64,000 nucleotides of DNA from a virus. A model generated the notes under the pieces. It did not search any database and was not told where the DNA came from. It was given only the letters and a program-made list of their open reading frames with translations. Shown piece by piece: positions 60,529 through 62,115 of the stretch. A program made the position numbers and the translations under genes. The stretch's first letter is position 1, and the number at the start of each line of letters is the position of its first letter. The stretch lies in IMG/VR virus record IMGVR_UViG_3300045391_000362; one strand, written 5' to 3'.

Positions 60529-62115
60529 ATGGCAAAGTTCAACAAGCCTGTTCGTACGGGAGTTACCTCTCCTGTAACCAGCACTAAGGCAGCGCTCAAC
60601 GCTGACTTTAAGGCTGGATTCGAGCGTACACAGAAGAGTGAGCTGTTTCTTCTGGCTGTATCCAACTTCGTTGGCAAGGATTCGTTCTACGAGACTGCTC
60701 AGGATCGTGACGACCGATTTGCCACTCTGTCTGCTGATGTCGCTGTGCAGGACCCTCGTTGGTTCGCTGGTTTCGTCGGCTGGCTCCGCAACGATGCGTT
60801 CATGCGTTCTGCGGCTGTTGTAGCGGCTGTTGAGGGTGCCAAGGCACTCTATGACTCAGGAGCTATGAACGGCGCTCCACGTGCCCTTGTAGCGGCTTCT
60901 CAGGCTCGTGCAGACGAACCTGGTGAGGTGCTGGCTTACTACGAGAGCAAGTACGGTAAGAACTTCCCTGCGTACCTTAAGAAGGGTGTTGCAGATGGCG
61001 CAAAGCGTCTCTACAACGAATACTCTTTGCTTAAGTACGACACGGATTCCAAGGGATACCGTTTCGCTGACGTTCTTCAGCTTTCTCACGCCAAGGCTGA
61101 GAATGCACAGCAGAACGCTCTGTTCAAGTATGCGCTTGATCGTCGCTACGGCAACGACACCATTCTTGACCACAACTACGAGCTTGACATGATTAGTACT
61201 CGTGCTAATCTGATGTCTGCTCCTGTTGAGAAGCGTAAGGCTCTCATTGGTACTCAGGCCGGTATGCAGACTCTGTCTCGTGCTGGCATGACATGGGAAG
61301 CTCTGTCCGGATGGCTTCAGGGTCCGATGGACAAGGCTGCGTGGGAGGCCGTTATCCCGAACATGGGTTACATGGCGTTGCTTCGCAATCTGCGTAACTT
61401 CCAGGATGCTGGAATCAGTGCTAAGGTACTGAATGTGGTTCTTGGTAAGCTGTCCGATCCGGCTCAGGTTGCTAAGAGCAAGCAGTTCCCGTTCCGTTTC
61501 CTTGCGGCGTACCAGGCCAACAAGAACAACCTTAAGATCGCTGCGGCACTTGAGGAAGCTCTTGAGGCATCTCTGAGCAACGTTCCGTCTCTGACTGGAC
61601 GTACTCTGATCCTGGTTGACCGTTCTGGTTCTATGTTCCAGCACCACCGTACCGACACTGAGTTGACTATGGCTGACAAGGCTGCTATCTTCGGTTCTGC
61701 GCTTGCGCTTCGAGCTGAGAATGCTGATCTGGTTCAGTTCGGGTCTGCTTGGGGTGGACGTAAGCCTTACGAGGCTGTAAGCTTCAAGAAGGGTAACTCG
61801 CTACTTCCGATGATGGACAAGTTCCGTGACATGGGTGGCACCGACACCGCTGCGGCGGTTAAGGGTAGCTTCAAGGGTCATGATCGTGTTATCATCATCA
61901 CCGATGAGCAGTACAACGGTTGGGGTGGCGATCCTCTTGCAAGCGTTCCGGTAAGCACTCCGGTGTATACCTGGAACCTTGAGGGTTACCGTGTTGGTCA
62001 GAGTCAGTCTGGTTCTAAGAAGCGTCACACCTTCGGTGGACTGACTGACAAGGGTTTCCAGATGATCCCTCTCATTGAGGCGGGTCAGAGCCAGAAGTGG
62101 CCTTGGGAGGCATAA
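60529..62115 (+). CDS. rsr: Ro60/Rsr-like RNA-binding protein (TROVE domain + vWA domain)
   Basis: ATG at 60529, 6 nt after AAGGAGG; TROVE-like N-terminal region (FERTQKSELFLLAVSNFVGKDSFYE, RNDAFMRS); C-terminal vWA with MIDAS LILVDRSGSM...GGTD...IIITDEQ. Confidence 0.75.
   Translation: MAKFNKPVRTGVTSPVTSTKAALNADFKAGFERTQKSELFLLAVSNFVGKDSFYETAQDRDDRFATLSADVAVQDPRWFAGFVGWLRNDAFMRSAAVVAAVEGAKALYDSGAMNGAPRALVAASQARADEPGEVLAYYESKYGKNFPAYLKKGVADGAKRLYNEYSLLKYDTDSKGYRFADVLQLSHAKAENAQQNALFKYALDRRYGNDTILDHNYELDMISTRANLMSAPVEKRKALIGTQAGMQTLSRAGMTWEALSGWLQGPMDKAAWEAVIPNMGYMALLRNLRNFQDAGISAKVLNVVLGKLSDPAQVAKSKQFPFRFLAAYQANKNNLKIAAALEEALEASLSNVPSLTGRTLILVDRSGSMFQHHRTDTELTMADKAAIFGSALALRAENADLVQFGSAWGGRKPYEAVSFKKGNSLLPMMDKFRDMGGTDTAAAVKGSFKGHDRVIIITDEQYNGWGGDPLASVPVSTPVYTWNLEGYRVGQSQSGSKKRHTFGGLTDKGFQMIPLIEAGQSQKWPWEA

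What the first reader, a model, noticed from the sequence alone, without database searches (positions are those of the whole stretch)
60529..62115. Phage-encoded Ro60/Rsr orthologue (TROVE + vWA/MIDAS) whose annotated ORF would be mis-started
The six-frame ORF starts at 60328, but its first 67 codons run through ncRNA unit D and a terminator. The real start is the ATG at 60529, 6 nt after AAGGAGG. The product has a TROVE-like N-terminal two-thirds and a C-terminal vWA domain with an intact MIDAS (DRSGSM ... GGTD ... ITDEQ), which is the Ro60/Rsr architecture. In bacteria, Rsr with Y RNA works with exoribonucleases in RNA quality control. Here it is embedded among 21 tRNAs and is flanked by Y-like RNAs on both sides (array upstream, degenerate copy at 62351-62421). 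A DEDDh exoribonuclease gene lies 8 kb upstream (52264-52818) and an RNA ligase gene is at 16466-17092. Together these suggest a phage RNA surveillance or repair module.
Basis: partly seen in the sequence, partly recalled or inferred. Interest (0 to 1): 0.7.

Follow-up and report, generated by a model that had tools for sequence, protein, structure and literature searches.

The report
Phage Ro60-like protein with Y RNAs
This is a real phage gene for a ring-shaped Ro60-type RNA-binding protein, preceded by five small Y-type partner RNAs; the pairing is already known from other phages and bacteria, so it is a well-supported but fairly ordinary example.

Summary
The gene at 60529-62115 (+) encodes a 528-aa protein of the Ro60/Rsr family. 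Pfam TROVE passes its cut-off, and an AlphaFold model (pLDDT 82) matches every solved Ro60/Rsr structure over its full length (TM 0.61-0.72). The vWA metal-binding site is intact and invariant. The start at 60529 is correct: the ribosome-binding site and the MxKFN N-terminus are conserved in all relatives.

Five tandem structured RNAs lie directly upstream (59806-60447). They have the Y-RNA layout, with strong covariation, and they belong to the same RNA family as the RNAs upstream of Streptomyces chromosomal homologues.

- The downstream "degenerate copy" is not supported as Y-like.
- The exonuclease is on the minus strand.
- No evidence ties the exonuclease or the ligase to this gene.

Phage Ro60 has been known since 2003, phage Y RNAs since 2014, and a phage Ro60/Y-RNA/host-PNPase complex since 2025. 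Relatives already annotate this gene as "Ro-like RNA binding protein". I rate it a new member of a known kind, of modest interest.

The parts
60529..62115 (+). Ro60/Rsr-family protein gene (528 aa). TROVE/HEAT-repeat region is about aa 35-351. vWA domain is about aa 358-517, with MIDAS residues D364, S366, S368, T438 and D459.
   Evidence: Pfam TROVE 63.4 bits. PHROG 850 'RNA-binding protein' 1.9e-50 over the full length. AlphaFold pLDDT 82.4, pTM 0.78. The top 13 Foldseek hits are all Ro60/Rsr, TM 0.61-0.72. Profile against PDB sequences: phiLo Ro60 1.3e-37, Rsr 6e-9, Xenopus Ro60 6e-8.
60517..60523 (+). Shine-Dalgarno sequence AAGGAGG, 5 nt upstream of the ATG at 60529
   Evidence: Read directly from the sequence. 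AGGAGG is conserved at the same place in 13 of 14 phage relatives.
60458..60491 (+). Intrinsic-terminator-like hairpin (9-bp stem, 10-nt loop, U6) between the RNA array and the Ro gene
   Evidence: -15.6 kcal/mol against -3.4 +/- 2.0 for shuffles. A hairpin with a T-run sits at the same position in GiJojo, BRock and Alone3, with different stem sequences. The pattern scan missed it because the loop exceeds 8 nt.
59806..59934 (+). Y-like RNA unit A (outer stem UGUGUC/GACACA, GAUGCGAAG loop, T-arm-like hairpin)
   Evidence: The covariance model built only from unit-E orthologues scores it 50.8 bits, E 3e-8, at full length. MFE fold. Outer stem pairs 6 of 6.
59943..60092 (+). Y-like RNA unit B, the most YrlA-like unit (T-arm, middle hairpin, D-arm)
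   Evidence: Rfam YrlA 32.4 bits, below the cut-off of 69, E 4e-5 on the 741-nt region. Model R1 53.0 bits.
60106..60216 (+). Y-like RNA unit C
   Evidence: Model R1 53.2 bits, E 1e-8. The outer stem covaries among orthologues.
60233..60309 (+). Y-like RNA unit D (short, no tRNA-like body, YrlB-like)
   Evidence: Model R1 43.9 bits, E 8e-7. Fold.
60321..60447 (+). Y-like RNA unit E. The spurious 5' extension of the long ORF runs through it.
   Evidence: RNAalifold on 12 orthologues gives 23 pairs, 14 with compensatory changes. Model R1 128 bits; this is a training sequence.
62115..62204 (+). 29-codon CxxC...CxxC (zinc-ribbon-like) small ORF whose ATG overlaps the Ro stop codon (TAATG). Possible coupled partner; not annotated anywhere.
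   Evidence: Similar 27-30-aa peptides (W-C-x2-C ... C-x2-C-x-R/S-P-K/R-P) sit at or overlapping the Ro stop in 6 of 15 close loci.
62351..62421 (+). Small structured RNA 'unit F' between tRNA-Ala and tRNA-Lys. Y-likeness doubtful.
   Evidence: Identical in L088. The outer stem covaries in L086 and L087, but GAUGCG is not conserved. Model R1 does not find it at E<=1.

Best explanation
The window is part of a BRock-like Streptomyces phage of about 111 kb. The gene at 60529-62115 encodes a Ro60/Rsr-family ring protein: a HEAT-repeat TROVE ring closed by a vWA domain with a metal-binding MIDAS site.

Five small RNAs (units A-E) are encoded directly upstream. They follow the last tRNA of a tRNA run and end at a terminator. 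Each has a terminal stem, a conserved internal loop (GAUGCGWAG opposite UUUCUAG), a second stem, and then a variable body. Four of the five bodies mimic parts of tRNA.

The most likely mechanism has three steps.
1. The RNAs are made and trimmed together with the phage tRNAs.
2. The Ro protein binds their conserved stem-loop-stem module.
3. The resulting particles engage a host 3'-5' exoribonuclease, most likely PNPase. This reshapes RNA decay or quality control during infection, as shown in vitro for Thermus phage phiLo Ro60.

What is shown here: protein family and fold, conserved functional residues, RNA structure and family, and conserved gene order.
What is inferred: RNA-protein binding, co-transcription, read-through of the terminator to express Ro, and the nuclease partner.

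My confidence by step is about 0.97 for the protein's identity, 0.85 for binding to these RNAs, and 0.4 for the PNPase-type effector step.
For: Protein
- TROVE scores above its cut-off. PHROG 850 matches over the full length.
- The model has pLDDT 82. The top 13 Foldseek hits are Ro60/Rsr from phage phiLo, Xenopus, human and Deinococcus, aligned over the full length.
- The profile reaches Rsr and vertebrate Ro60 by sequence. The LSHxK histidine (H187) and the MIDAS residues align.
- H187S abolishes Y-RNA binding in mouse Ro60 (PMC11277228).
- The MIDAS ligands correspond to the Ca2+ ligands D322, S324, T391 and D416 of phiRo60 (PMC12135203).
- More than 6,600 homologues were found. The 120 closest are 63-94% identical and 510-559 aa long.

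RNAs
- Five units share the 5' and 3' motifs.
- In 61 units from 15 genomes, 5.52 of 6 outer-stem positions pair. Shuffled partners give 3.37 +/- 0.16, maximum 3.87.
- 14 of 23 consensus pairs show compensatory changes.
- A model trained only on unit E finds units A-D and nothing else in the 64 kb. It also finds two units upstream of each of six Streptomyces chromosomal homologues.
- Those host RNAs score 41-46 bits on Rfam YrlA, E about 1e-7.

Precedent
- Y RNAs lie within 4 kb of Ro60, on the same strand, in 254 bacteria and 22 phages (PMC4201824).
- phiRo60 binds two upstream phage Y-like RNAs, forms a complex with host PNPase and slows it (PMC12135203).
Against: - No binding, expression or processing data exist for this phage.
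- Rfam's YrlA model is not reached at its curated cut-off (32 bits against 69).
- The 5' motif is UGCGAAG or UGCGUAG, not the published GNCGAAN0-1G.
- Units B and D carry CGUA instead of the CGAA motif.
- A strong terminator sits 22 nt before the Ro ribosome-binding site, and I found no convincing promoter after it. How Ro is transcribed is therefore unclear.
- The PNPase link is borrowed from Deinococcus and Thermus-phage work. There the effect was tested only in vitro, on a single-stranded substrate.
- Unlike Thermus, Streptomyces hosts have their own Rsr and Y RNAs, so the phage system may work differently.
Confidence: 0.7

Rival explanations
1. tRNA decoy or tRNA protection. The tRNA-like bodies of the Y-like RNAs, held or presented by the Ro ring, act as competitive decoys or sensors for host tRNA-targeting nucleases. 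Alternatively they support quality control of the phage's own large tRNA set. Either way, translation of a 49%-GC phage is protected in a high-GC host.
For: Four of the five units carry a T-arm-like GGUUCGAWUCC hairpin, and unit B also has a D-arm. The array sits directly after tRNA-Asn inside an island of 21 tRNAs. ARAGORN, and the GenBank annotators, mistake the orthologous unit E for a tRNA in GiJojo and Alone3. Hughes et al. 2020 proposed that the YrlA tRNA-like domain could competitively inhibit an anticodon nuclease (PMC7790460).
Against: No anticodon-loop mimic is evident. In YrlA-type RNAs the tRNA-like part lacks an anticodon arm. Unit D has no tRNA-like body yet is conserved. No experiment in any system has shown decoy activity.
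Confidence: 0.2
2. Interference with the host's own Ro system. Streptomyces has a chromosomal Rsr homologue with Y RNAs of the same RNA family. The phage copies may titrate host Rsr with excess phage Y RNAs, or capture host Y RNAs with phage Ro. That would disable or redirect a host stress or RNA-quality pathway.
For: Streptomyces chromosomes carry full-length homologues at 51-55% identity. Two or three upstream RNAs share the 5' module: GGUGCGAAGGCAGGACCUACUUC in the host, CGAUGCGAAGGCAACGGGGUUACUUC in the phage. The phage-derived model finds them. The phage encodes five RNA units per protein gene, with a terminator before the protein gene, which would favour an RNA excess.
Against: This is purely inferential. 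The phage and host protein clades are well separated. The conserved 3' motifs differ (UUUCUAGG against GAUCUCGGG), so cross-recognition is not assured. Thermus phage phiLo carries the system although its host lacks Ro60, so host interference cannot be the general rationale.
Confidence: 0.12
3. The real product is the 595-aa protein starting at 60328 (or at 60406 or 60499), and the upstream 'RNA unit' is simply coding sequence.
For: The frame is open from 60328, and ATGs are present.
Against: None of those ATGs has a ribosome-binding site. The extension crosses a covarying RNA and a terminator. All 59 aligned homologues start M-x-K/R-F-N. In 9 of 14 phage relatives the upstream frame closes within 11 codons. 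Annotated relatives are 1572-1587 bp long.
Confidence: 0.02

Closest known systems
phiRo60 of Thermus phage phiLo with Yrl1 and Yrl2 (Hu et al. 2025, NAR; PDB 9kop, 9l5y)
   Same: It is a phage-encoded Ro60 with a HEAT-repeat ring and a vWA/MIDAS domain. It is the best PDB match by sequence (profile E 1.3e-37) and by fold (E 7e-17). Its Y-like RNAs have a stem-bulge-stem and a CGAA motif, and are encoded just upstream of the gene.
   Different: Identity is only about 22%. phiLo has 2 Y-like RNAs, against 5 here. The phiLo host lacks its own Ro60, whereas Streptomyces has one. Here the RNAs sit in a tRNA island and most have tRNA-like bodies. Whether the phiLo dimer and C-terminal helix features apply here was not assessed.
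'Ro-like RNA binding protein' of actinophages (Streptomyces phages GiJojo gp30, pSt2308, BRock gp191, Alone3 gp37; also Arthrobacter and Gordonia phages)
   Same: Same gene in the same syntenic slot: tRNA-Trp, tRNA-Asn, RNA gap, Ro, tRNA-Ala, tRNA-Lys x2. Identity is 65-70% and the length is essentially the same (523-528 aa).
   Different: No phage record matches at the DNA level beyond 290 bp at 80%. An IMG/VR contig of 111 kb is 98% identical over the part it holds (L088). The public records do not annotate the Y-like RNAs, and two of them annotate unit E as a tRNA.
Bacterial Rsr with YrlA/YrlB (S. Typhimurium, M. smegmatis) and D. radiodurans Rsr-Yrn1-PNPase (RYPER)
   Same: Same protein architecture. 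The RNA genes lie adjacent on the same strand. A tRNA-like T arm, middle hairpin and D arm are present in at least one RNA per locus. Shorter YrlB-like RNAs lie alongside.
   Different: NCBIfam's Rsr equivalog threshold and Rfam's YrlA threshold are not reached. No RtcB or RtcA is adjacent. The 5' motif is a variant. The setting is a lytic-type phage tRNA island.
Mycobacteriophage Ro60 orthologues (Pedulla 2003) and their YrlA RNAs (Chen 2014)
   Same: These are the first described phage Ro60 genes with adjacent YrlA-like RNAs.
   Different: They come from a different phage lineage. They did not appear among the organism names listed for the tblastn hits at E<=1e-5, so they are distant relatives at best.
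Streptomyces chromosomal Rsr-like genes with upstream Y-like RNAs
   Same: They are the closest cellular homologues: 51-55% identity over the full length, and the same MxRFN start. Their upstream RNAs belong to the same family.
   Different: They form a separate tight clade and have 2-3 RNAs instead of 5. Their GC content is about 60-65%. Their neighbours are a PLP-dependent enzyme and TerD, not tRNAs.

Membership tests
Ro60/Rsr (TROVE + vWA) protein family | TROVE domain detectable by profile | tested here: met
   Pfam PF05731 scores 63.4 bits against a cut-off of 23, E 3e-17, although only aa 230-333 align. The A1 profile hits Rsr, Xenopus Ro60 and human Ro60 at 6e-9 to 3e-7.
Ro60/Rsr (TROVE + vWA) protein family | Full-length fold: alpha-helical HEAT-repeat ring closed by a C-terminal vWA domain | tested here: met
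   AlphaFold pLDDT 82.4, pTM 0.78. Foldseek ranks 1-13 are all Ro60/Rsr structures, with 505-558 aligned columns and TM 0.61-0.72. The next hit drops to E 3.5e-3. The pore itself was not measured.
Ro60/Rsr (TROVE + vWA) protein family | MIDAS motif DxSxS...T...D in the vWA domain | tested here: met
   D364, S366, S368, T438 and D459 are invariant in 59 homologues. They align with the DxSxS, GGT and TDE motifs of phiRo60 and Rsr. The motif definition comes from PMC11277228.
Ro60/Rsr (TROVE + vWA) protein family | Conserved residue needed for Y-RNA binding (vertebrate H187) | tested here: met
   The invariant H187 in LQLSHAK aligns with LRLSH187IKP of Xenopus Ro60 and with the equivalent His of human Ro60 and Rsr. 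The H187S phenotype is taken from the review PMC11277228.
Ro60/Rsr (TROVE + vWA) protein family | Binds Y RNA or misfolded RNA | not testable with these tools
   This needs EMSA, CLIP or RIP.
NCBIfam NF041674 'RNA-binding protein Rsr' (equivalog) | Whole-protein score at or above the curated cut-off | tested here: not met
   36.6 bits against a cut-off of 900. It is a family homologue, not an NCBI-defined equivalog of bacterial Rsr.
YrlA / Y RNA-like (Rfam RF02553; Chen 2014) | Score at or above the Rfam gathering threshold | tested here: not met
   The best is unit B at 32.4 bits, against 69. The Streptomyces host RNAs also fall short at 41-46 bits.
YrlA / Y RNA-like (Rfam RF02553; Chen 2014) | Encoded within 4 kb of the Ro60 gene on the same strand | tested here: met
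   Units A-E lie 82-723 nt upstream on the + strand. The criterion is from PMC4201824.
YrlA / Y RNA-like (Rfam RF02553; Chen 2014) | 5' motif GNCGAAN0-1G (CGAA motif) within a stem-bulge-stem formed by the 5' and 3' ends | tested here: inconclusive
   The stem, internal loop and second stem are strongly supported by covariation. The motif is UGCGAAG in units A, C and E (CGAA present, first G absent) and UGCGUAG in units B and D.
YrlA / Y RNA-like (Rfam RF02553; Chen 2014) | tRNA-like domain (T arm, acceptor-like hairpin, D arm) in at least one RNA per locus | tested here: met
   Unit B aligns to the T, middle and D helices of the YrlA model. Units A, C and E have a covarying T-arm.

The most novel reading that the evidence does not exclude
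In this phage lineage the Ro protein, five co-transcribed tRNA-mimicking Y RNAs and a translationally coupled zinc-ribbon micro-protein may form a dedicated counter-defence or tRNA-guarding device inside the phage tRNA island. It could decoy host tRNA-targeting nucleases, or hijack the host's own Rsr/Y-RNA stress pathway, instead of acting as a plain RNA quality-control module.
Probability: 0.15. Interest if true: 0.7.

Novelty: new member of a known kind. Interest (0 to 1): 0.3.

Why it matters
What bacterial and phage Ro60/Y-RNA particles do in vivo is still largely open. The only phage example studied (phiLo) was examined in vitro, and its authors called for an infection model.

This lineage offers one. 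The cultured relatives BRock, GiJojo and Alone3 grow on Streptomyces. The gene is conserved across more than 100 related contigs. There are five clearly delimited partner RNAs, and the host has its own homologous system for comparison.

The practical gain is better annotation. The Y-like RNAs are unannotated in public records of these phages, and one of them is annotated as a tRNA in at least two records.

Tried and rejected
- Rfam at gathering thresholds found no YrlA in the window, the phage relatives or the Streptomyces loci. Only sub-threshold searches and a custom model revealed the family.
- The NCBIfam Rsr equivalog model fails by a wide margin.
- A megablast search of phage GenBank records found no close genome: only 290 bp at 80%.
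- The promoter and terminator pattern scan was uninformative. Promoter-like sites were at background level. The true hairpin was missed because its loop is 10 nt.
- I tested unit F (62351-62421) as a sixth Y-like RNA. Its outer stem covaries, but the GAUGCG motif is not conserved and the covariance model does not find it. I therefore do not count it as Y-like.
- I checked the other tRNA-island spacers for further Y-like units. None has the motif, and their folding z-scores are only -1 to -2.5.
- I considered recent capture from the host. The tree shows separate, deep clades, so that is rejected, and the direction of transfer is unresolved.
- My recollection that H187S affects misfolded-RNA binding was contradicted by the review, which assigns it to loss of Y-RNA binding.
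- The supplementary tables of Chen 2014 and the 2020 Annual Review were not available.
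Full report
**What is in the sequence**

The six-frame ORF 60328-62115 (+, 595 aa) exists. It has four in-frame ATGs, at 60328, 60406, 60499 and 60529. Only the last has a Shine-Dalgarno sequence: AAGGAGG at 60517-60523, with a 5-nt spacer.

The 67 codons upstream of 60529 cross two features. One is a structured RNA unit at 60321-60447. 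The other is a 9-bp hairpin followed by U6 at 60458-60491, with a folding energy of -15.6 kcal/mol against -3.4 +/- 2.0 for shuffles.

The start at 60529 is well supported.
- All 59 aligned homologues begin M-x-K/R-F-N.
- The AGGAGG box and this N-terminus are conserved in the phage relatives. Streptomyces chromosomal homologues also begin MSRFN or MARFN.
- In 9 of 14 phage relatives the upstream frame closes within 11 codons.
- The annotated genes in GiJojo and Alone3 are 1587 bp, like 60529-62115, and the BRock gene is 1572 bp.

So the start is correct. The 'mis-start' is a risk only for a naive longest-ORF caller.

**What the protein is**

Sequence searches place it in the Ro60 family.
- Pfam TROVE scores 63.4 bits against a cut-off of 23. 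VWA_2 is just under its cut-off, at 23.5 against 27.
- PHROG 850 'RNA-binding protein' matches over the full length at 1.9e-50.
- A profile of 59 homologues hits phage phiLo Ro60 (1.3e-37), D. radiodurans Rsr (6e-9), Xenopus Ro60 (6e-8) and human RO60 (3e-7).

The structure prediction agrees.
- The AlphaFold model has pLDDT 82.4 and pTM 0.78. It shows a helical repeat region (aa 35-351) followed by an alpha/beta domain (aa 358-517).
- The top 13 Foldseek matches in the PDB are all Ro60/Rsr structures, aligned over 505-558 columns with TM 0.61-0.72. The next hit drops to E 3.5e-3.

Key residues are conserved.
- The MIDAS residues D364, S366, S368, T438 and D459 are invariant. They align with the metal ligands reported for phiRo60.
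- The invariant H187 aligns with vertebrate H187. The substitution H187S abolishes Y-RNA binding in mouse Ro60 (PMC11277228).

One caveat remains: NCBIfam's Rsr equivalog model scores only 36.6 bits against a cut-off of 900. This is a divergent family member, not a strict equivalog.

**The RNAs**

Five tandem units lie upstream: A 59806-59934, B 59943-60092, C 60106-60216, D 60233-60309 and E 60321-60447. Each begins CGAUGCG(A/U)AG and ends UUUCUAG.

All five fold the same way:
- a 5-6-bp terminal stem whose sequence differs between units but stays complementary;
- a conserved internal loop;
- a second, variable stem;
- UUACUUC, followed by a body.

The bodies of A, B, C and E contain a T-arm-like hairpin. 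Unit B also has a D-arm, and it is the only unit with a (sub-threshold) Rfam YrlA hit: 32.4 bits against 69, E 4e-5.

Three tests support the structure and the family.
- Across 61 units from 15 related genomes, 5.52 of 6 terminal-stem positions pair. With shuffled partners the figure is 3.37 +/- 0.16, maximum 3.87.
- In 12 orthologues of unit E, 14 of 23 consensus pairs show compensatory changes.
- A covariance model built from unit-E orthologues alone recovers units A-D at full length (44-53 bits). It finds nothing else in the 64 kb beyond a marginal tRNA hit.

This is the stem-bulge-stem, CGAA-type architecture used to define Y-like RNAs (PMC4201824, PMC12135203). The motif is a variant, however: UGCGAAG or UGCGUAG instead of GNCGAAN0-1G.

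The downstream element at 62351-62421 is a conserved small structured RNA in some relatives. Its GAUGCG motif is not conserved and the model does not find it. I do not accept it as a Y-like copy.

**Relatives and origin**

No GenBank phage record is close at the DNA level. At the protein level, 51 phage records carry a homologue. The nearest are Streptomyces phages GiJojo, pSt2308, BRock, Alone3 and LuckySocke (65-70%), which annotate it 'Ro-like RNA binding protein' or 'RNA-binding protein'.

Their gene order is the same as here, and the five RNA units are conserved unit for unit. IMG/VR holds a 111-kb contig that is 98% identical over the part of the gene it contains.

Streptomyces chromosomes carry full-length homologues at 51-55% identity. 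Their neighbours are ordinary chromosomal genes. Two or three upstream RNAs belong to the same RNA family.

A neighbour-joining tree puts the BRock-like phage clade and the Streptomyces chromosomal clade in separate, deep groups. The whole protein-plus-RNA cassette is therefore shared between these phages and actinobacteria. It is an old phage lineage, not a recent capture, and the direction of transfer is unresolved.

- The window has 21 tRNAs.
- The ORF at 52264-52818 is on the minus strand. It matches the Rv2179c-like 3'-5' exoribonuclease domain (37 bits against a cut-off of 27) and a PHROG named 'RNase H'.
- The ORF at 16466-17092 matches RNA_ligase (33.8 bits against a cut-off of 27; PHROG 548). 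It sits among RecA, ribonucleotide reductase and DNA polymerase genes.
- Nothing ties either gene to the Ro locus. A combined 'module' is conjecture.

**Mechanism**

The shown facts are the protein family and fold, the conserved RNA-binding and metal-site residues, the RNA structures, and their conserved adjacency.

The inferred steps are as follows.
- The RNAs are co-transcribed with the tRNA run and end at the terminator.
- Ro mRNA arises by read-through, which would give an excess of RNA over protein.
- Ro binds the conserved stem-loop-stem module.
- The particle engages a host exoribonuclease. Precedents are Deinococcus RYPER and phiLo, where Ro60 plus Y-like RNA slowed host PNPase in vitro.

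The rivals are a tRNA-decoy role, a possibility raised for YrlA by Hughes et al. 2020, and interference with the host's own Rsr/Y-RNA system.

**Novelty**

Phage Ro60 has been known since Pedulla 2003. YrlA RNAs were reported in 22 phages by Chen 2014. TROVE proteins were noted in jumbo phages in 2021. A phage Ro60 structure with biochemistry followed in 2025. The 'Ro-like RNA binding protein' label is routine in actinophage annotation.

This is a new member of a known kind. The modestly new points are the five-unit Y-like array in Streptomyces phages, its mis-annotation as tRNA in public records, the coupled zinc-ribbon micro-ORF, and the shared RNA family with the host.

Noticed in passing
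L001:3769-3843 (GiJojo PP725410 gene 29) and L003:3774-3847 (Alone3 OR725492 gene 36); orthologous to window 60321-60447: The annotated 'tRNA-Arg(cct)' and 'tRNA-Ser(gct)' start exactly at the CGAUGCG motif of Y-like unit E and end after its T-arm. ARAGORN calls them, but Rfam's tRNA model does not reach threshold. They are probably Y-RNA modules mis-annotated as tRNAs.
   Followed up: partly
window 62115-62204 (+): An unannotated 29-codon ORF (MKWFCIWCRSWWAPEKAVCPDCNRPKPKS, CxxC...CxxC) has an ATG that overlaps the Ro stop codon (TAATG). Similar 27-30-aa peptides occur at the same place in 6 of 15 close loci, and GiJojo has two. It may be a zinc-ribbon micro-protein translationally coupled to Ro.
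   Followed up: partly
window 59091-59254 (+): Rfam manA RNA (RF01745) scores 57.1 bits, above its gathering score of 55.2. The hit fills the spacer between tRNA-Leu(taa) and tRNA-Leu(tag).
   Followed up: no
window 62351-62421 (+): A small structured RNA lies between tRNA-Ala and tRNA-Lys. It is identical in L088, and its outer stem shows compensatory changes in L086 and L087. It is absent from L084, L085 and L090. It is not recognisably Y-like.
   Followed up: partly
window 56388-56523, 56596-56737, 56812-56952, 57025-57192: Four spacers of 136-168 nt between consecutive tRNA genes show modest predicted structure (z about -1 to -2.4). They have no Y motif and may hold other small RNAs.
   Followed up: partly
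window 59222-59599 (+): This is a second long-ORF artefact. The six-frame ORF starts at a TTG inside the tRNA-Leu(tag) region (59256-59329). By analogy with GiJojo gene 26, the likely real gene is the small membrane protein starting at the ATG at 59384 (MDIVFAVLGF...).
   Followed up: partly
L040:6473-7567 (-); Alone3 gene 43 (L003:8270-8977); BRock gp184 (L002:7747-8346): A TerD-domain gene lies about 2 kb from the Rsr homologue in the Streptomyces chromosome. TerD or 'stress protein' genes also lie a few kb downstream of Ro in Alone3 and BRock. A larger shared block is possible.
   Followed up: no
window 52264-52818 (-): The libraries disagree on the name. Pfam calls it an Rv2179c-like 3'-5' exoribonuclease domain (37 bits). 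PHROG 2259 is labelled 'RNase H' (2e-51). The gene is on the strand opposite to the Ro gene.
   Followed up: partly
L088 (IMGVR_UViG_3300017791_000021, 111,015 bp): This metagenomic viral contig encodes a Ro protein 98% identical over residues 133-528 and has an identical tRNA-Ala/tRNA-Lys spacer. It is probably the same phage species as the window.
   Followed up: no
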